Under the pieces are notes generated by a model that made no database searches, was not told where the DNA came from, and saw nothing but the letters and a program-made list of their open reading frames with translations. A stretch of 47,623 nt of DNA, from positions 1-47,623 of the IMG/VR virus record IMGVR_UViG_2541047816_000005; one strand, given 5' to 3'. Positions 222-8,033 of the stretch are shown here, one piece after another; position 1 is the first letter of the stretch, and each line of letters opens with the position of its first letter. This DNA comes from a virus. Taxonomy: Duplodnaviria > Heunggongvirae > Uroviricota > Caudoviricetes. The position numbers and the translations under genes are program-made.

Positions 222-290
222 ATGGCGCTTTACACAATTGGTGAAGTGGCGTTGCTTTGTGATATTAACCCTGTCACGTTACGCGCGTGA
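222..290 (+). pseudogene. mlrA: 5' fragment of MerR-family regulator (MlrA/YehV-like), 22 codons then TGA; likely prophage junction
   Basis: ATG at 222 preceded by AGGGTGAGA; translation MALYTIGEVALLCDINPVTLRA then stop at 288-290; matches the N-terminal HTH of MlrA as recalled, and similarity ends abruptly. Confidence 0.45.
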
Positions 291-514: not shown

Positions 515-763
515 ATGCGTGTTGAGATCTGTATCGCTAAAGAAAAAATCAGCAAAATGCCGAAAGGTTCTGTTCCTGCTCTGCAGCAAGAAATGCTGCG
601 CCGCATAGGTAAGCGATATGACGATGCAGATGTGATCGTTAAATCTGCCAGCAATGATGGACTCACCATTTTAAGAGCCGTCGATAAAGAATCAGCACTG
701 GAGTTCGTACAGGAAACACTACAGGAAGTCTGGCAAACCGCGGACGACTGGTTTATGCAATAA
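515..763 (+). CDS. DinI-family DNA-damage-inducible protein
   Basis: 82 aa; [10 protein letters not shown]...[12 protein letters not shown] resembles DinI along its length (recalled); strong RBS; LexA box upstream. Confidence 0.75.
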
Positions 764-880
764 CGGGATCATAATCACTGTAATGACCTGTTTTGTATGA
801 CATTCTTAAAAGGCATAACAACGAGCTTGTCGTTTCAAGCGACTTCTTCTGGTTGGGGAGCCTGAGTGCTCCCCTTTTTT

Positions 881-1177
881 TCAGCTAAAAATCAGCATAC
901 AGCCATACAATCCCGCACAGGCCACCACCGGCACCACAAAATCCATCAGACTGGCCACATTCCACACACGCGGATCAAAACCGCCCCACCACGGCATGTT
1001 CTGTCTGTGACCATCACCAAAACGCTTAATCCAGCGATATTCTGCCTGGGTATGTTCTCGGGCAATAAAGAACGTACAACCCGCTATCGCTCCGTAAACC
1101 CAGTCACCGGTAATGCACCCGACCAGCCCCTGCACGGCTACTGCACAAATTGCATGAAGTATCGGCGTGATATCCAT
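881..1177 (-). CDS. small hydrophobic membrane protein, unknown function
   Basis: 98 aa ORF with hydrophobic Cys/Gly-rich segments (AVAVQGLVGCITG, VVPVVACAGLYGCMLIF); follows the 92 aa ORF in the same orientation. Confidence 0.4.
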   Translation of the reverse strand: MDITPILHAICAVAVQGLVGCITGDWVYGAIAGCTFFIAREHTQAEYRWIKRFGDGHRQNMPWWGGFDPRVWNVASLMDFVVPVVACAGLYGCMLIFS

Positions 1178-1186
1178 CTGCTCCCC

Positions 1187-1465
1187 TTAAAACCACTCCC
1201 TGAGCGGGCGCTCTGGTGTAACCACCCACTCACGGAACACGGATTCATCAAAGCCATCGTCAAGAAGACGAATATTAACAAAGTACCCTTCGTCTCGCGT
1301 GTATTCAGGCTCCCCGTCAGCAGAAACACCTGACTCACTGAACGTAAAACCAATCTCATCAACCAGAATGGCATTCTGCAGCTCTTCGTCCTCTTCCCAG
1401 TTAAGTTTCCTGAGAAATGCCCTGAAATCTGCTTTATCACTGAAACGCAACGTGAAATCTCTCAC
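1187..1465 (-). CDS. small acidic protein, unknown function (sits where a tail fiber assembly gene is expected)
   Basis: 92 aa, very D/E-rich; start overlaps the tail fiber stop (1462-1465); not recognisably Tfa-like. Confidence 0.4.
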   Translation of the reverse strand: MRDFTLRFSDKADFRAFLRKLNWEEDEELQNAILVDEIGFTFSESGVSADGEPEYTRDEGYFVNIRLLDDGFDESVFREWVVTPERPLREWF

Positions 1466-3522
1466 TCCACAACCTCCCCAAGCTGCGCATCTGTTAGCTC
1501 TTTATGCCAGAGACGAAAATTCCTCACATGCCCAAATAAATGGCGTAATCCTGCTGTAGTTTGTCCACCAATGCGAATGATTGCTGTACTCCGGATATAT
1601 TCCCATGTGGTTTTTGTTTCGCTGGATATACGCCCGTTACTTACTGCACATGTAGACTGATCTGACTTTACACGCATCCCCATAACCATTTTTTTCAACG
1701 ATGCGTTTTCGTTAACACGCCTATTTGATCCACCAATATCGCAATAAGGAAATCCGTCTGGCCCATCTGCCGAAGATCCGAAGCCAAGAATAATAGCCGC
1801 TCCGGTTTGATGACCGCCGGTATCAAAAACACGTGGCGCTGCATTTGGCGTTTTATACCAGTTCTTATGTACCTCACAAAGAACCGTAAAAGGAAGATTA
1901 TAAAGATTATTCTTAATCGGAACTGTAACCATATCGCTTGCGCGCGTCGCCGCCGTCGTTCCTGATATAATAAAAGATGATACACACGAACCATCCTCAA
2001 CCTGAGGGGTGGCCAGATAAATATAGTCACCAGATTCAACGACACCACCTTTTTTTGGTGCGTATTGTATTGCAGAGGTTATGTAAGTTTCTTTACTTGC
2101 TTGAATCGTTGCCTCTACAAAAATCCAGCCCGTAGCTTCATCTTTGCTAACTCGTGCGGTGAGCCTGTCGGCAGCTACACCGGTGATTTCAACCAATAAA
2201 GACCGCGTATTAACAATGGCATATCCAAGATTAGATGAAGCGCTGCCATCGAAGGCTTCAAACCTGATCCTTAACAGGAGTTCCAAATCCGTTTTAAATC
2301 TGCACGATGTCGTCACACACTTATTATCGCCTGATACATCGACAGCCCCCGAGGTTGAAACTACTGCCATATTAAGGGTTGTACTTTGCCCAATTAATGA
2401 TTCATTACAAACAAACTTTCCATAAGTAAAACCAAAACTATCAGTTCCAACCTCAGCGACATTCATATTTGCAGATTTACCCCAAGAAGCTGGAGTTGCT
2501 GAATTCAACATGTAGTTGGTTCGCTGACCTTCAATCAATAAACCTTCTTTTTCAAATCGTGGCTCATTAATTTCCGCCGTTTTCAGTTCGCCAGATTTGT
2601 TGATATATGTTGCCGTTGATGCGCGACTGAAATTAACCTGTTTATCACTGGCAACCTGAACCACATTATCACCAATCTTCACTTTTTTATAACCCGGAGA
2701 ATAGCCCGTAATCATATCCAGCGAATCATTAAAGGGTATCCACACATCCGGCAGCGGCTGTAAAACATATCTGTACGGCTCTGCTGTCTGGTTTGCGTAT
2801 TCTCTGGCAGCATCTTCACTTGCTTTTGCTGCCGTCTGGCTTGCTGCCGATGCTTTCGCCGAGTTCGCCGCCGCTGTTTCGCTCACCTTTGCGTTGGCTT
2901 CACTGTCTTTGGCATTCGTCTCACTGGTTTTCGCTGCCGTCTGGCTGGATTTTGCGTTTTTTTCGCTGGCCTTTGTGGCTGTCTCGCTATTTTTCGCGCT
3001 GGTTTCTGATTTTTTGGCTGCTGTCGCGGAGTTTGCCGATGCAGTCTGCGAGGCCGCTGCCGCCTGTGCGCTGTTAGCTGCATTCGTTTCTGAGGTTTTC
3101 GCCGCATTCTTCGATGAGGCTGCTGCCGTTTCGGATTTCTTTGCCGCCGCTGCACTCTGTGATGACGCTCCGGCATGACGTGCCACTTCATTCACCATCA
3201 GCTCAAAACGGCGCAGTGCCTCCGGACGAACATCATCCTCCGTCATGGCGCCGAGAAAATCATTCAGCGTACCTGGTCTGGAACCTTCATAGACGGTAAT
3301 GGTCCCGGCATGTGAAGGCGGAAAATCTTCAACCAGCAGGGTGACGCTGTACTGGCCATACTCAACATCCATGCTGTAACGCCCGGCTTCATCCGGATTT
3401 TCAGAGGCCACCGTGTTCACCACCACCGTGCTGCTGGTCCGTCTGGCCTTCAGCACAATGGTGCAGTTCTGTACTGGTTTTCCTGTGCCATCTTTAAGCA
3501 CGCCAGAAATTTTTACTGTCAT
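1462..3522 (-). CDS. stf: side tail fiber protein (lambda Stf-like N-terminus, Ala/Ser/Thr/Lys-rich repeat shaft, divergent C-terminus)
   Basis: 686 aa; N-terminus MTVKISGVLKDGTGKPVQNCTI...GRYSMDVEYGQYSV matches lambda Stf as recalled. Confidence 0.85.
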   Translation of the reverse strand: MTVKISGVLKDGTGKPVQNCTIVLKARRTSSTVVVNTVASENPDEAGRYSMDVEYGQYSVTLLVEDFPPSHAGTITVYEGSRPGTLNDFLGAMTEDDVRPEALRRFELMVNEVARHAGASSQSAAAAKKSETAAASSKNAAKTSETNAANSAQAAAASQTASANSATAAKKSETSAKNSETATKASEKNAKSSQTAAKTSETNAKDSEANAKVSETAAANSAKASAASQTAAKASEDAAREYANQTAEPYRYVLQPLPDVWIPFNDSLDMITGYSPGYKKVKIGDNVVQVASDKQVNFSRASTATYINKSGELKTAEINEPRFEKEGLLIEGQRTNYMLNSATPASWGKSANMNVAEVGTDSFGFTYGKFVCNESLIGQSTTLNMAVVSTSGAVDVSGDNKCVTTSCRFKTDLELLLRIRFEAFDGSASSNLGYAIVNTRSLLVEITGVAADRLTARVSKDEATGWIFVEATIQASKETYITSAIQYAPKKGGVVESGDYIYLATPQVEDGSCVSSFIISGTTAATRASDMVTVPIKNNLYNLPFTVLCEVHKNWYKTPNAAPRVFDTGGHQTGAAIILGFGSSADGPDGFPYCDIGGSNRRVNENASLKKMVMGMRVKSDQSTCAVSNGRISSETKTTWEYIRSTAIIRIGGQTTAGLRHLFGHVRNFRLWHKELTDAQLGEVVE

Positions 3523-3534
3523 ACTTTTCCACCA

Positions 3535-3567
3535 ATAAAAAAAGCCCGCAGCAGTGACGCCACGGGC
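3535..3567 (-). terminator. rho-independent terminator downstream of lom
   Basis: minus strand GCCCG-loop-CGGGC followed by a run of 9 T. Confidence 0.5.
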
Positions 3568-3673
3568 TTCAGGACAGTGTAACTTTACGTTTCCTCAAAC
3601 GCAGTTCACCCCATAAGGCGGATGAACCTGCGTATCATAACAATATTTACAGAAGATAAATCGGCGTCTGTTG

Positions 3674-4273
3674 TCAGAAACGGTATCCGATACCAACAAT
3701 AAATGCATCCGTTCGCCAGTCGCCACTACCGGAACCTTCATAAGCAATATCAATGGTCACGGATTCGGTCGGGTTAAACTGCACGCCAGCTCCCCACGCC
3801 AGAGACGTGTTGCTGTGGCGATCGTCATCACTTCCGGTCAGCACATCGTGCGTTTTCCCCTTGTTGTCAGTTACGCGGAGATAATCCCCGGAGAACGTCG
3901 ACACACGGCTGTAAGCCACACCTGCCATCGCATAAGCACTGAACCATTCATTCACGCGCACAGACGGCCCCGCCATCACGCTGAACCAGCGGTTACGCAC
4001 GGAATCTTCATGCCAGCGGGTATCGCTGTAGTGCGTTTTTTGCTCATCCTCAGCATTGGCATAACTGAAGGACGTAATCAGCCCCAGCGCGTCCGTAAAC
4101 TCATAACGGTATTTCACGTTAATCCCGTTCAGATTATCGCTGCCTGGCATATCAGTGTGGGTCTGAAGATACCCGGCGCTTAGTGTGGACTGATGCTCTG
4201 CTGCGCTCGCTGGCGTACCAGCGGCAACCAGCCAGACTACTGCGGACAGAATAACAGCACATAATTTACGCAT
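3674..4273 (-). CDS. lom: Lom/Ail-family outer membrane protein
   Basis: 199 aa with signal peptide; near-identical blocks to lambda Lom (NGINVKYRYEFTD, WHEDSVRNRWFSVMAGPSVRVNEWFSAYAMAGVAYSRV). Confidence 0.9.
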   Translation of the reverse strand: MRKLCAVILSAVVWLVAAGTPASAAEHQSTLSAGYLQTHTDMPGSDNLNGINVKYRYEFTDALGLITSFSYANAEDEQKTHYSDTRWHEDSVRNRWFSVMAGPSVRVNEWFSAYAMAGVAYSRVSTFSGDYLRVTDNKGKTHDVLTGSDDDRHSNTSLAWGAGVQFNPTESVTIDIAYEGSGSGDWRTDAFIVGIGYRF

Positions 4274-4297
4274 AATTACCTCTCGCTTTTCTGCAAT

Positions 4298-4321
4298 AAA
4301 AAAGGCGCCATTTCTGGCGCC
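4298..4321 (-). terminator. rho-independent terminator between J and lom
   Basis: minus strand GGCGCCA-GAAA-TGGCGCC followed by TTTTTT. Confidence 0.5.
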
Positions 4322-4340
4322 CGTATTGGGGTTATAAAAT

Positions 4341-7300
4341 TCAGCTAATCGTGATGCCTGCAGTGGCTTTCTTCATCACAACAACCAGCAAATCGCTGAT
4401 ACTTGCTGTGGGATACCAGCCATTTACCCACCATGCTGATACAGAAAACTCCAGCGTCATGTGGCCGTGACCGGCAGGCATATCAATAACACCACTGTAA
4501 ATCAGCGTATTATCCAGCGCGGTACGGTTATAAATTTCAGCACCGTTTTTCCGTACTATCAGGCGGCATGACGAATAAATATCGTTATTCTCCCGCTCAT
4601 GTCTGGCACCGCTGAATGCCACCGCCGGAATAACAATTTGCCGGTCAAACGGCTGATCGTCATAAACCCTGACGGTAATGGTCCCTGATGGCCACCTCTC
4701 CGGTGCACGGGAGTCACGGGGGAAAGCCTTACCCACTGTTTTAACGAGATCGCCTTCAATCTGGTTTGCAGACAGTTTTCCTCTGATGACACAGTTCTCG
4801 TTAATGGTGACATTATTGAGCGTGCCGGTATTCGCCGTGATGGCTCCACTGATATCCGCATTGCGGGCTGTCAGCCTGCCATCCGGCGTCAGGGAAAACG
4901 TCGGAGGATTGCCGGATGACGTGATGCTCACCGCAAACAGTCGCTTCAGGAACACGTCGTTCATGAACAGCTGATTCCCCTGCGCCACAAACAGCGGCGT
5001 GGTGTTGCCGTTCTCCGGGGTAATCATCGCGATACGGTCCGCCTGCAGCAGAATACTGCTCAGCGTCTGACCATCAACATCCTCAATCCCCGCGCCAATC
5101 CCGGCCACATAGGGAATACCGTTTTTTGTTTTCTGCACCTTCAGCATATACATGGCATTCAGCTCATTGCGCGTGTCTGACTGAACCCGCTGGATTTGCT
5201 GTATGGTCACGGCCTGGTCACCCAGCTTTTTATCCGTGGTCGAGGTAATTTCACTCCCTTTTTTATCCACGTACTGGCGGACCTGTGCTATCTGTCGGGC
5301 GTTTTCTGACTGCCCCTGGCTGACAGTCTGTGAGATTTCACTGCTCACCCGGTCCACTTTCTGGCTCACCTGCGCGATGGCCAGTGTCTGGTCCTCATTC
5401 TTTTTCGCAACCAGCTGCGTGAGGCTGTTTTCCGCCTCCCCGATTTTCCGGGTCACTTCTGCGATATCCGTGTCCATCCGCTGACGGATGTCTTCTTCCA
5501 GTTGCGTGACCTCCGTACGCAGCGCTGAAGCATCAATGCGCTCTTTCAGTGCCTGACCCAGAAGCGTCTCATCTATCAGCCCCCGGAAAATTTCCAGATA
5601 CCCTTCACCATCATTGCTGGGCTGCCCGCTGGCTTCCACAAAAGCAGATTTTCCCACCAGGTTGACGCTTCGCACGTAAAACCAGAAATCCGTCCCCGGC
5701 TTAATCCGGCTCCCCTGGACAGTCCACTGACTGCCGGTCCCCAGATAACGGGCAGATTTTTCCACCTGTGCCGTGTTCGTGATGCGTTTTTCTGAGAACC
5801 AGAATTCAAACTGTACCGTCGGGTCATACACCGCAAGACGCGGGACCGCCGTTATCTGAAAATACCCCGGCGTCAGCTCAATGGTGGCGGGTTTTGCAGG
5901 TGCGTTAATCCGGAAGGTGGTGGTGGCAGGTTCACCCTGCTGGCCATAGCTGTTTATCGCCCGCACCGTCAGGGTGTATTCCCCGAGCGGCAGGCCGCTG
6001 AAACGGTGCTCCGTGTCTGCGGTGATGGCAGTGGTCACCAGTCTGGCATCCGTTCCCTTACCACTGGTCAGGCGCAGACTGAAGCGCACGCCCTTCACCA
6101 CCCGCGGCGTGTCCCATTTCGCCTGCGCCAGATACTGGCCATCAGCTGCGCTCACCTCCACCGTCAGGTGCTGCACTGCCGGTGGGATAACGCTGTTCAG
6201 GGTGCCTGACTGCGGCTCAAAGCGGGCACCGTTATCCACGATGGCTTCTTTTTCCGGTACGTGCTGCACCGCCGTGATGGCAAAGGTGCCGTCCGTGTTT
6301 TCCCGGATGGAGACACAGCGGAACAGGCGACGGCGCAGTGACGGCAGGGAGAGTCCCCACACCCCGTATGTCTCCACACCATCAGGCAGGGTACTGACCT
6401 GTATCCGGTCCGGCGCGGGGTGTGCGGTGATGTCCACACTCACCGGCTTACCGCTGCCGTTAATCAGGTTCACCGCTGATGTACCTGTCTCCGGCAGGGT
6501 AACCTCACGGTCCAGCGTCAGGGTGCGGGTGGCAGCATCAATGGACAGGACACGTCCGCCGGTCAGGGTCCCGGCATAGTCATTATCACAGATTTCAATA
6601 ATGTCACCGGGTGTGTGACGCAGCCCCTGTGACCCGAGCGTGAAATCCACCGTCTGCGTTTCCAGCAGTTCGGTCTTTATCACCCACAGCCCGGCACGGT
6701 GGGCCTGACCGCGGCTGGTACAGCCGAACGCGTCCATCTTCAGCAGGTTGCGTCCGTAGCGCAGTATGGCTTCCGGGTCTTCCACCAGTTCCGTGGAGGT
6801 CTGCCAGCCGTTCTGCGGGTCGGTGTAATTCACCTCCACCGCCGTGTGCCGGTCCTTCAGGGCACTGAAGCTGTAGCGGAAACCCACGCCGTTATCATCC
6901 ACCACCACATCGCTGCTGGTGTACGGCCACACCACATCCGACGGGCGGTCCTGAACAAACGTCAGCGTCTGACCGTTCCATACCGGCATACAGCGCATCG
7001 CAGAGCAGAAATCACTGAGAACGTCCCACGCCTTACGCTGTTGTGCCAGGTACGCATTAAAGGTCATCCGCGGCTCGGTCCCCCCGAAACCATCCGGGAC
7101 CGTCTGGTCGCAGTACTGCCCGATGGCATACAGCGCCCACTTGTCCACATCCGCCACCCCCAGACGTTTTCCCATGCCGTAGCGCGGGTGAGTCAGCATG
7201 TCCCACAGGCACCAGGCCGGGTTGTTGCTGTATGCCGGTTTCAGACTGCCGTCCCAGATACCACTGTACGTGCGTTTTTCCGGGTCATAGTTTGACGGCA

Positions 7301-8033
7301 CCTGGATGATGCGACCGCGGATATGGTAGTTCACCGTCATCTGCTGGCCGCCGAACTGCTCCGCATCCACCTGCAGCCCCACAATGGCCGTGTTCGGGTA
7401 GCACTGTTTCACATCGATGATTTCGGTGTATGACGACCACAGCGTCTTATTCTGCAGCTGGTCCGTGGTGTTGTCCGCCGTCTCCCTGACCATCCGGATG
7501 TTAAAGGGCCGGGGAGGCAGATTATCCAGAATCACCGAGGCCAGGAACTGCGAGGTGGTCTTGCCGTTAATGGTGACATCCTTTTCCGTCACCCAGCGAC
7601 CATTACGCTGTAACTGAATCAGAATCCGGACAGAGGAAGGATTACGGTCGCCCTTTGACGTGGTCTGCACCAGTGACTGCACCCCGAAGGTAACCCGCAG
7701 GCGGTCAATGTTCGCGGACGTAATGGTGCGCGTCACCGGTTTTGCCTTCGTCACTTCCACGCCCAGTCCGGTTTCAGCTCCGGAGGACTCAAAGCCTTCC
7801 GGTGGTGTCTGCTCCTGCTCCCCGGCGCGCCAGACCGCGGTCACACCGTGTATCACGGGATTACCGTCCGTGTCCGTCAGCGGGGTTTTGTTCACCAGGA
7901 TACTCTGCAGTCCCTTCACCGGACCTTCTATCGGTCCCTCACCAATCGCATCAATCACACTCATCATCTGCGTGGATTTGAGATTATCCTTCGCCTCGCG
8001 AGGCGTGTGTGCCTTACCGCCACCTTTTCCCAT
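4341..8033 (-). CDS. J: tail tip / host specificity protein J
   Basis: 1230 aa; start [20 protein letters not shown] and long blocks colinear with lambda gpJ (recalled). Confidence 0.95.

What the first reader, a model, noticed from the sequence alone, without database searches (positions are those of the whole stretch)
881..1465. Acidic 92 aa protein plus small membrane protein in place of a tail fiber assembly gene
Directly after the Stf-like fiber, where tfa is expected, there is a very acidic protein overlapping the fiber stop and then a small hydrophobic Cys/Gly-rich protein. This could be a new fiber chaperone, or a cargo pair such as an exclusion or immunity function, close to the prophage end.
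Basis: inference. Interest (0 to 1): 0.5.

Follow-up and report, generated by a model that had tools for sequence, protein, structure and literature searches.

The report
Tail-fibre accessory protein plus membrane moron
The two small genes after the prophage tail fibre are real but unrelated: the acidic one is an uncharacterised partner of lectin-headed phage fibres found in many coliphage groups, and the membrane one is a widespread add-on gene of temperate phages and some bacteria.

Summary
Two minus-strand genes follow the 686-aa Stf-like fibre. ORF92 (1187-1465, pI 4.25) starts with a GTG that overlaps the fibre stop. ORF98 (881-1177) has three predicted helices. They are not a pair.

ORF92 (PHROG 1361, no Pfam or PDB relative) travels with the fibre's lectin-like C-terminal head. 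It occurs in 187 phage records, the head in 205, across lambdoid, T5-like, T1-like, rV5-like, Dhillonvirus and Queuovirinae phages. In most lineages a second, distal fibre gene starts about 10 nt after it. In DT57C the two fibre halves form one chain, with no head and no ORF92. ORF92 stays intact and under purifying selection here, where no distal fibre exists. It shows no Tfa homology or fold.

My best reading, by inference, is a cap or joint subunit at the fibre's head end. A non-structural chaperone remains possible.

ORF98 (PHROG 1443) follows unrelated receptor-binding proteins in P22-like, epsilon15-like, P2-like and Hapunavirus phages. It is also chromosomal in Aeromonas and sphingomonads. 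That makes it a moron-like membrane gene of untested function, not a chaperone.

Both genes are common "hypothetical proteins". Interest is moderate.

The parts
1462..3522 (-). Side-tail-fibre (Stf-like) gene, 686 aa. It comprises an N-terminal virion-attachment domain, an Ala/Ser-rich shaft, a GTA-head-spike-fibre-like domain and a lectin-like C-terminal head.
   Evidence: PF08400 at aa 1-131 (E 1e-67) and NF048003 at aa 329-528. PDB 6tb9 head spike fibre matches aa 298-543, and PDB 9e7m tail fibre matches aa 1-94. PHROG 1419 tail protein.
1465..2742 (-). Exchangeable receptor-binding cassette of the fibre (last ~425 aa). It contains the GTA-spike-like domain (about 1933-2742) and the lectin-like head (1465-1932), with a conserved C-terminal framework RIGGQ..G.RHLFGH.RN.R.WHKELTD.Q.
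   Evidence: GC is 0.43-0.44 against 0.52 for the window. 84% nt identity to the virulent phage VogelGryff lateral tail fibre (H16). Homologous ends occur on fibres of T5-like, rV5-like, Dhillonvirus and Drexlerviridae phages. Alignment of 13 divergent alleles. The same domain is called the 'lectin-like head D69' or 'galectin-like domain' in PMC12143355 and PMC11990801.
1187..1465 (-). ORF92, an acidic 92-aa fibre accessory protein (PHROG 1361). Its start is translationally coupled to the fibre stop.
1473..1477 (-). Shine-Dalgarno sequence GGAGG for ORF92, lying inside the 3' end of the fibre gene.
   Evidence: Read directly from the sequence.
881..1177 (-). ORF98, a 98-aa three-helix membrane protein (PHROG 1443). 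The segment FIAREHTQAEYRWI...MPWWGGFD is almost invariant.
1181..1186 (-). Shine-Dalgarno sequence GGGGAG for ORF98, in the 9-nt spacer after ORF92.
   Evidence: Read directly from the sequence.
855..874 (.). GC-rich hairpin between ORF98 and the convergent DinI gene. Its T-run serves the plus strand (DinI), and it probably ends the fibre-ORF92-ORF98 transcript as well.
   Evidence: Terminator scan.
3541..3570 (-). Terminator-like hairpin between lom and the fibre gene. Fibre, ORF92 and ORF98 would be reached by antiterminated late transcription.
   Evidence: Terminator scan: 13 pairs followed by a T-run, and no sigma-70 consensus promoter on the minus strand in 600-3800. Phage 21 has an annotated terminator at the same place.

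Best explanation
The region holds two independent modules at the end of the late tail operon of a lambdoid prophage.

(1) ORF92 is an accessory subunit of lectin-headed lateral or side tail fibres. It is made in step with the fibre by termination-reinitiation at the overlapping GTGA. I infer that it binds the conserved C-terminal framework at the head end of the fibre trimer, as a small cap or joint. In the many phages that carry a second fibre gene directly after it, this cap is where the conserved N-terminus of the distal fibre docks, giving a branched two-specificity fibre. In this prophage the distal fibre gene is absent and only the capping or stabilising role remains.

(2) ORF98 is an unrelated small inner-membrane protein. 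It belongs to a Proteobacteria-wide family that temperate phages repeatedly carry just downstream of whatever receptor-binding protein they have. I infer that it acts on the cell envelope of the infected or lysogenic cell (superinfection exclusion or receptor masking), not on the fibre.

Shown: gene reality, conservation, gene order, co-occurrence, mosaic boundaries, and absence of Tfa homology. Inferred: physical binding of ORF92 to the fibre, presence of ORF92 in the virion, and any activity of ORF98.
For: ORF92 co-occurs with the fibre head:
- tblastn finds ORF92 in 187 phage records and the fibre's last 162 aa in 205, with the same taxon profile.
- In all 88 loci first collected, ORF92 directly follows a fibre ending in the homologous ~425-aa module.
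- The same holds for divergent 88-aa homologues in AKFV33 and BRET.
- The lineages include strictly virulent T5-like, rV5-like, Dhillonvirus, Drexlerviridae and Nonagvirus phages. This argues against a lysogeny cargo.
- The start-stop overlap is conserved, at 1 or 4 nt.

ORF92 is linked to a distal fibre:
- A gene with the N-terminus M[VAT]T.T.IP.DI..LK starts 10-13 nt after ORF92 in IrisVonRoten, KarlBarth, orkinos, 2G7b, AKFV33 and BRET.
- The same is true in 80 of 81 loci of the 93-aa clade.
- For the dozen of the 59 phage records carrying that motif that I cross-checked by coordinates, it lies just downstream of an ORF92 homologue.
- ORF92 identity tracks distal N-terminus identity (Spearman 0.51) and not head identity (0.06).
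- DT57C LtfA contains the proximal part (aa 1-205) and the distal part (aa 511-1073, 45% identical to Iris gp24) in one chain, with neither lectin head nor ORF92. ORF92 therefore sits exactly where the fibre is split into two chains.

ORF92 has a function without a distal fibre:
- No distal-fibre motif occurs anywhere in the window.
- ORF92 is nevertheless intact in 45/45 window-type and 34/34 phage-21-type loci, with dN/dS of 0.43 and 0.21.

ORF92 structure: a confident alpha/beta model (pLDDT 88). The conserved C-terminal tail (..PLREW, with invariant R88 and W90) is the least confident part of the model, as expected for a docking peptide.

ORF98 is separable and moron-like:
- It is absent from the virulent lineages. 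Only partial hits were seen in a few large or presumably virulent phages, including jumbo Aeromonas phages.
- It follows a P22-like tailspike (Gally), an epsilon15-like tailspike (phiv142-3), a P2-like fibre with Peptidase_S74 (Leclercia), a Tfa gene in phiHAP-1, a lambdoid fibre without ORF92, and a Chelativorans GTA-spike-like fibre.
- In Gally it has its own terminator, promoter-like site and Shine-Dalgarno sequence.
- It is chromosomal in Aeromonas and lies after ligA in sphingomonads.
- Its GC is 0.525, like the prophage backbone, against 0.43-0.48 for the fibre cassette and ORF92.
Against: - No direct evidence shows that ORF92 binds the fibre or is in virions. I could not run a multimer prediction.
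- Published AlphaFold-Multimer models join IrisVonRoten gp22 and gp24 without gp23, the ORF92 homologue (PMC11990801). An adaptor may therefore not be needed.
- Linkage alone could produce the ORF92/distal-N-terminus correlation, because the genes are adjacent and the recombination breakpoint lies in the conserved 3' end of the fibre gene.
- rV5-like homologues lack the PLREW tail and have no distal fibre.
- Retention of ORF92 without a distal fibre fits a plain chaperone equally well.
- For ORF98, no promoter of its own was found in this window. Here it would be a late gene rather than a lysogen-expressed one.
- Chromosomal housekeeping-like copies of ORF98 do not obviously fit an exclusion role.
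- No fold or family match gives ORF98 any activity.
Confidence: 0.45

Rival explanations
1. ORF92 is a non-structural folding or assembly chaperone for the fibre's C-terminal module. It would be a functional analogue of Tfa from a new family, released after assembly and absent from the virion. The distal fibre docks on the proximal fibre itself.
For: - ORF92 lies immediately downstream of the fibre, is translationally coupled to it, and is always associated with the lectin-headed module.
- It is retained and under purifying selection where no distal fibre exists.
- Published models join the proximal and distal fibres without it.
Against: - No sequence or fold similarity to any Tfa, gp38, gp57A or intramolecular chaperone.
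- ORF92 does not co-vary with the variable head it would fold (Spearman 0.06). Heads of 34-91% identity combine with the same ORF92.
- A Chelativorans fibre with the homologous GTA-spike-like domain has no ORF92.
- Beta-sandwich lectin domains generally fold autonomously (general knowledge).
Confidence: 0.3
2. ORF92 and ORF98 work together as a cargo pair, such as superinfection exclusion, immunity or anti-defence. ORF92 would be, for example, an acidic DNA-mimic or inhibitor, and ORF98 its membrane partner.
For: - Both sit at the prophage end, in the region where lambdoid phages carry morons.
- ORF92 is strongly acidic.
- The two genes are adjacent in 76 related loci.
Against: - The genes are separable in both directions.
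- In the 93-aa clade a whole fibre gene lies between them.
- ORF92 is found in virulent phages inside the fibre operon.
- No PADLOC match for either.
- Their GC content differs.
Confidence: 0.04
3. ORF98 is a holin-like or lysis-timing membrane protein.
For: - Weak N-terminal matches to Phage_holin_8 (E 0.003, 18.1 bits) and to holin PHROG 198 (E 0.042).
- In phiv142-3 it lies two genes upstream of the holin-endolysin cassette.
Against: - The score is below Pfam's cutoff of 26.4 bits and covers only a hydrophobic helix.
- The most conserved part is a charged loop, which is atypical of holins.
- Phages that carry it have their own annotated holin.
- Chromosomal copies lie next to ligA or pirin, outside prophages.
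Confidence: 0.05
4. ORF98 alters or shuts off display of surface glycans (O-antigen or capsule pathway) from the cytoplasmic-membrane side. Progeny or rival phages that use glycan-binding receptor proteins would then adsorb less. This is a specific version of the exclusion idea in the main explanation.
For: - Every phage receptor-binding protein found upstream of it looks glycan-directed: a lectin-like head, a pectate-lyase-fold tailspike, an endosialidase-type fibre with Peptidase_S74, a P22-like tailspike and a GTA-spike-like fibre.
- It occupies the slots that hold gtrABC in P22, the conversion genes in epsilon15 and fun(Z) in P2 (own knowledge of those genomes).
Against: - No similarity to any glycan-pathway protein.
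- Sphingomonads, which lack LPS, carry chromosomal homologues.
- No experiment bears on the idea.
Confidence: 0.2

Closest known systems
Lambda Tfa, P2 gpG and Mu gpU tail fibre assembly proteins (Pfam Caudo_TAP and relatives)
   Same: The gene lies immediately 3' of the fibre gene and is expressed with it. These proteins act on, and in Mu stay bound to, the fibre's distal end. Fibre tip and partner move together between unrelated phages.
T4 long-tail-fibre joint proteins gp35 and gp36, sited between proximal gp34 and distal gp37
   Same: In most lineages ORF92 is encoded exactly between a proximal and a distal fibre gene. It sits at the point where the single-chain DT57C LtfA is split into two chains.
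   Different: No sequence relation was detected, and ORF92 is much smaller. Virion presence of ORF92 is unproven. In this window there is no distal fibre at all.
Branched L-shaped tail fibres of T5-like phages DT57C and DT571/2 (LtfA/LtfB; PMC4728585, PMC10713586)
   Same: The same overall idea of two receptor-binding fibres on one attachment point. IrisVonRoten gp24 and AKFV33 orf135 are homologous to parts of LtfA and LtfB.
   Different: DT57C has no lectin head and no ORF92. Its LtfB docks on an internal LtfA region. LtfC, which is annotated as 'assembly protein', is the collar at the tail and is unrelated to ORF92.
Alteromonas phage fibre chaperones proposed as transient 'caps' (PMC10579305)
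   Same: A fibre plus its cognate small downstream protein is shared as one host-recognition module by distantly related phage families. The cap idea is also shared.
   Different: According to that paper's abstract, those chaperones resemble intramolecular chaperone domains. ORF92's alpha/beta fold gave no such match.
Morons and lysogenic-conversion genes next to receptor-binding protein genes (P22 gtrABC, epsilon15 conversion genes, P2 fun(Z), HK97 gp15, phi80/N15 cor; own knowledge)
   Same: ORF98 occupies the same slots downstream of the receptor-binding gene. In Gally it has its own terminator and promoter-like site. It is largely restricted to temperate phages.
   Different: No homology to any of these genes. 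In this window it has no detectable promoter of its own. Chromosomal non-phage copies exist. Its function is untested.

Membership tests
Tfa-type tail fibre assembly proteins (lambda Tfa / P2 G / Mu U; Pfam Caudo_TAP and related) | Sequence match to the family profiles | tested here: not met
   No Tfa-type family among the Pfam hits at E<=1 for ORF92, for ORF98, or for 31 ORF92 relatives. NCBIfam gave nothing.
Tfa-type tail fibre assembly proteins (lambda Tfa / P2 G / Mu U; Pfam Caudo_TAP and related) | Fold like solved Tfa structures or other fibre chaperones | tested here: not met
Tfa-type tail fibre assembly proteins (lambda Tfa / P2 G / Mu U; Pfam Caudo_TAP and related) | Gene directly downstream of the fibre gene and co-expressed with it | tested here: met
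   4-nt GTGA overlap with the fibre stop in the window. Overlaps of 1-4 nt in five other lineages.
Tfa-type tail fibre assembly proteins (lambda Tfa / P2 G / Mu U; Pfam Caudo_TAP and related) | Required for folding or trimerisation of the fibre tip | not testable with these tools
   Needs co-expression or knockout experiments.
Intramolecular chaperone fibres (Peptidase_S74) | C-terminal Peptidase_S74 domain on the fibre, making a separate chaperone unnecessary | tested here: not met
   The window fibre has no PF13884 match. Distal fibres of related phages carry it or are annotated 'chaperone of endosialidase'.
PHROG 1361 (unknown function) | Full-length profile match | tested here: met
   ORF92 aa 1-92 against profile positions 1-92 of 92, E 2.7e-39.
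PHROG 1443 (unknown function) | Full-length profile match | tested here: met
   ORF98 aa 1-91 against profile positions 1-91 of 97, E 1.9e-48.
Fibre joint or adaptor proteins (T4 gp35/gp36 type, by function) | Encoded between the proximal and distal fibre genes | tested here: inconclusive
   Met in relatives: IrisVonRoten, 2G7b, KarlBarth, orkinos, AKFV33, BRET and 80/81 loci of the 93-aa clade. Not met in the window, which has no distal fibre.
Fibre joint or adaptor proteins (T4 gp35/gp36 type, by function) | Present in the virion at the junction | not testable with these tools
   No proteomic or structural data were found. The rV5 proteome paper and the RBPseg cryo-EM maps (7-9 A) do not resolve the question.
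Holins (Phage_holin_8, PHROG 198) | Profile match above the curated threshold | tested here: not met
   ORF98 scores 18.1 bits against a cutoff of 26.4, over aa 7-46 only. PHROG 198 gives E 0.042.
Morons (autonomous transcription unit inserted in a late operon) | Own promoter and terminator flanking the gene | tested here: inconclusive
   The homologue in P22-like Gally is preceded by a terminator and a promoter-like site. In the window there is a hairpin after ORF98 but no consensus promoter before it.
Known anti-phage defence or exclusion proteins (PADLOC-DB) | Match to any defence-system model | tested here: not met
   No PADLOC family at E<=1 for either protein.

The most novel reading that the evidence does not exclude
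ORF92 founds a new family of tail-fibre joint proteins. In this reading a 10-kDa cap binds the conserved framework of lectin-headed fibres and provides a universal socket for the conserved N-terminus of a second, interchangeable fibre. It would then be the element that lets lambdoid, T1-like, T5-like, Dhillonvirus and Queuovirinae phages build branched, dual-specificity fibres and swap either receptor-binding part independently.
Probability: 0.3. Interest if true: 0.6.

Novelty: new variant of a known kind. Interest (0 to 1): 0.42.

Why it matters
Lectin-headed lateral fibres decide which O-antigen types many coliphages can infect, and they are prime targets for host-range engineering. Current models of these fibres, such as the BASEL and RBPseg predictions, ignore the small gene that always follows them.

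If ORF92 is a cap or joint, two consequences follow:
- Fibre-swap designs would have to carry it along.
- Its conserved interface would explain why the head and the distal fibre can be exchanged independently.

ORF98 is present in about a third of complete E. coli genomes, often in several copies, and has no known role. A defined envelope or exclusion function would annotate thousands of 'hypothetical proteins'. Neither gene is surprising enough to change a field, and both are ordinary in distribution.

Tried and rejected
- Homology to known families. Pfam, NCBIfam and PADLOC scans of both proteins, and Pfam scans of 31 ORF92 relatives and 10 distant ORF98 relatives, gave nothing. PDB sequence-profile searches were also negative.
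- Programmed frameshift fusing ORF92 to the fibre. Rejected: there is no slippery heptamer before the stop, and the overlap is 4 nt in some phages and 1 nt in others, so the frame relation is not conserved.
- ORF92 as an acidic DNA mimic or anti-defence protein. Rejected on distribution, because it is always inside fibre operons, including those of virulent phages.
- A distal fibre hidden elsewhere in the window. The motif search of all six frames was negative.
- Literature. The BASEL papers, the DT57C papers, the RBPseg paper and the rV5 proteome paper do not mention the small protein. The svsR sRNA paper proved irrelevant, because svsR lies at cI.
- Complex prediction of fibre plus ORF92.

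Full report
**What is there**

The window is a complete lambdoid prophage of an E. coli IAI39-like strain. It matches NC_011750 at 99.9% identity and lies next to btsS. On the minus strand the late operon ends with these genes:
- J (4341-8033)
- lom (3674-4273)
- a 686-aa Stf-like fibre (1462-3522)
- ORF92 (1187-1465)
- ORF98 (881-1177)

A convergent DinI gene (515-763) and a 22-codon remnant of a MerR-type gene (222-290) follow. I read the remnant as the disrupted mlrA/yehV integration target.

The ORF92 GTG start shares four bases with the fibre's TGA stop, and a GGAGG sequence lies 7 nt upstream. ORF98 starts 9 nt after the ORF92 stop, behind GGGGAG. ORF92 has a pI of 4.25. ORF98 is hydrophobic, with 5 Cys and 11 Gly.

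**Both are real, conserved genes without a known family**

- ORF92 matches PHROG 1361 and ORF98 matches PHROG 1443 over their full lengths. Both PHROGs are listed as 'unknown function'.
- Pfam, NCBIfam and PADLOC give nothing significant. PDB profile searches are also negative.
- AF2 gives confident models. ORF92 is an alpha/beta domain (strand, two helices, four strands; pLDDT 88), and confidence drops over its conserved C-terminal tail. ORF98 has three helices (pLDDT 94).

**ORF92 belongs to the fibre**

- tblastn finds ORF92 homologues in 187 phage records. In the listed records the match abuts or overlaps a tail-fibre gene.
- The last 162 aa of the window fibre are found in 205 records with the same taxon profile.
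- In all 88 loci first collected, ORF92 directly follows a fibre whose last ~425 aa are homologous to the window fibre. This module is a GTA-head-spike-fibre-like domain plus a C-terminal beta-sandwich head.
- These loci include a virulent Tequintavirus (IrisVonRoten), a Vequintavirus (JeffSchatz), a Dhillonvirus (KarlBarth) and a member of the Drexlerviridae (orkinos), besides lambdoid phages 21 and 2G7b.
- More divergent 88-aa homologues occupy the same place in AKFV33 and in the Nonagvirus BRET.
- The head is the domain called 'galectin-like' in the BASEL paper and 'lectin-like head D69' in the RBPseg paper, where it was seen in low-resolution virion maps. Neither paper discusses the small downstream gene.
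- In the window this receptor-binding cassette has a GC of 0.43-0.44 against 0.52 for the prophage. It is 84% identical at the DNA level to the lateral fibre of the virulent phage VogelGryff, so it is a recently exchanged module.

**ORF92 sits at a fibre junction**

- In IrisVonRoten, KarlBarth, orkinos, 2G7b, AKFV33 and BRET, the gene starting 10-13 nt after ORF92 is a second fibre. Its N-terminus is conserved (M[VAT]T.T.IP.DI..LK). In most of them the C-terminus carries an endosialidase-type intramolecular chaperone.
- In 80 of 81 prophage loci of the 93-aa ORF92 clade, the order is proximal fibre, ORF92, distal fibre, ORF98.
- For the dozen of the 59 phage records with the 2G7b-type distal N-terminus that I cross-checked by coordinates, the motif lies just downstream of an ORF92 homologue.
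- Within that clade the same ORF92 (88-100% identical) is combined with heads that are 34-91% identical to the window's. Across 47 unique triples, ORF92 identity correlates with distal N-terminus identity (Spearman 0.51) but not with head identity (0.06).
- The breakpoint lies in the conserved 3' framework of the fibre gene (RHLFGH.RN.R.WHKELTD.Q).
- DT57C LtfA contains the proximal N-terminal part and a 563-aa region 45% identical to IrisVonRoten's distal fibre in one polypeptide, with no lectin head and no ORF92. Relative to DT57C, 'lectin head + ORF92' therefore behaves as an insertion that splits the fibre into two chains, and ORF92 is encoded exactly at the split.

**ORF92 also has a role without a distal fibre**

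- The window has no distal-fibre motif in any frame.
- In the window-type and phage-21-type prophages (76 loci), ORF98 follows ORF92 directly.
- ORF92 is nevertheless intact in all of them, with dN/dS of 0.43 and 0.21, compared with 0.32 in the two-fibre clade.
- rV5-like phages also have a divergent ORF92 and no distal fibre.

**Interpretation of ORF92**

The simplest model that fits all of this is a small subunit that binds the conserved framework at the head end of the fibre trimer. It would cap or stabilise that end, and it would be the docking site when a distal fibre is present.

This is an inference. No tool here could test binding, and published multimer models connect the two fibres without it. 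A released, non-structural chaperone is the main rival. I rate the cap or joint model at about 0.45 and the pure chaperone at about 0.3. A cargo or anti-defence role for ORF92 is very unlikely.

**ORF98 is a separate module**

- Its homologues are found in only 74 phage records, almost all temperate.
- They follow unrelated receptor-binding proteins:
  - a P22-like tailspike in Gally, before int
  - an epsilon15-like pectate-lyase-fold tailspike in phiv142-3
  - a P2-like fibre with Peptidase_S74 in a Leclercia prophage
  - a Tfa gene in Halomonas phage phiHAP-1
  - a lambdoid fibre without ORF92
  - a Chelativorans fibre with a GTA-spike-like domain
- In Gally the gene is preceded by a terminator, an AT-rich promoter-like region and its own Shine-Dalgarno sequence, which is the classic moron layout.
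- The family has 457 clusters at 50% identity among 1.8 billion proteins, and all are stand-alone proteins of roughly 65-145 aa. It spans Gamma-, Beta-, Alpha- and Deltaproteobacteria.
- Some copies are plainly chromosomal. In Aeromonas one lies between a pirin gene and a RIO1 kinase gene. In sphingomonads it lies directly after ligA.
- The most conserved part is the segment FIAREHTQAEYRWI...MPWWGGFD, which runs from the end of helix 2 into the loop before helix 3. By the positive-inside rule I infer that it faces the cytoplasm.
- In the window I found no promoter for ORF98. A terminator-like hairpin lies upstream of the fibre, so here ORF98 is probably expressed with the late genes.
- ORF98-like DNA occurs in 1763 of 5426 complete E. 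coli genomes, with a median of two copies. The whole window-type pair occurs in 364.

**Interpretation of ORF98**

It is not a fibre chaperone. It accompanies fibres and spikes of entirely different folds, including self-chaperoning ones, and it exists outside phages. Its constant position behind glycan-directed receptor-binding genes of temperate phages, in slots known for conversion and exclusion genes, suggests an envelope-directed function such as exclusion or receptor masking. No homology supports a specific activity, and the chromosomal copies are not explained by this idea. A holin role is unlikely.

**Verdict**

ORF92 is a new, widespread family of fibre accessory protein that is unrelated to Tfa and probably acts at the fibre's head end. 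ORF98 is an independent moron-like membrane gene. Both are common and conserved rather than exotic. The interest lies in the consistent fibre / ORF92 / distal-fibre architecture, which the papers I read on these fibres do not mention.

Noticed in passing
window 222-290 (+), with the flank outside the window start: A 22-codon remnant (MALYTIGEVALLCDINPVTLRA) with a MerR-type helix-turn-helix lies next to btsS/btsR. The prophage appears to be integrated into mlrA (yehV), a known lambdoid and Stx-phage integration site. RefSeq annotates the remnant as an incomplete hypothetical protein.
   Followed up: partly
window 1465-2742 (-): The fibre's receptor-binding cassette has a GC of 0.43-0.44 (GC3 0.35) against 0.52 for the prophage. 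It is 84% identical in DNA to the lateral tail fibre of the virulent phage VogelGryff, which indicates recent exchange between virulent and temperate phages.
   Followed up: partly
L093-L172 (E. coli prophage loci), about 5292-6330 in each: The distal fibre after the 93-aa ORF92 clade comes in at least two alleles that share only the first ~30 residues. One is ~345 aa, and the other is a shorter gene ending near 6000. Both are followed by an ORF98 homologue.
   Followed up: partly
L250 (DT57C) 3480-6710, compared with L004 (IrisVonRoten) 2614-7013: DT57C LtfA is a single-chain equivalent of IrisVonRoten gp22 N-terminus plus gp24. The distal fibre's 'N-terminal motif' resembles the shaft repeat IATTYTKVEVDSALADK of LtfA.
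   Followed up: partly
phage-collection records MG0656xx ('Campylobacter phage C11-C14, A116, A12a...') and OR84xxxx ('Listeria phage LM 4-14-1'): Records labelled as Campylobacter or Listeria phages carry E. coli-phage-type fibre, ORF92 and distal-fibre sequences at up to 86% protein identity (fibre C-terminus). They are probably mislabelled or contaminated entries.
   Followed up: no
window 28642-30603 (-), 31909-32070 (-), 32840-33982 (+): The prophage carries three further features: a NanS-p-like esterase (DUF1737 + SASA + DUF6645), tRNA-Arg(tcg) and tRNA-Met genes, and a full-length Gram-negative porin gene (Porin_1, E 2.5e-151).
   Followed up: partly
L234, L240, L243 (sphingomonads) and L173 (Aeromonas rivipollensis): ORF98-family genes lie directly after the NAD-dependent DNA ligase gene in several sphingomonads. 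In Aeromonas one lies between a pirin gene and a RIO1 kinase gene, near two lipid A acyltransferase genes. These are non-prophage settings.
   Followed up: partly
window 3541-3570 (-): A strong terminator-like hairpin (13 pairs plus a T-run) lies between lom and the fibre gene, as annotated in phage 21. The fibre, ORF92 and ORF98 therefore depend on read-through of late transcription.
   Followed up: no
L008 (phage 2G7b) 7587-7885: Two short ORFs annotated 'tail fiber assembly protein' lie beyond ORF98 in 2G7b. They look like remnants of a lambda-type tfa gene left after replacement of the fibre module.
   Followed up: no
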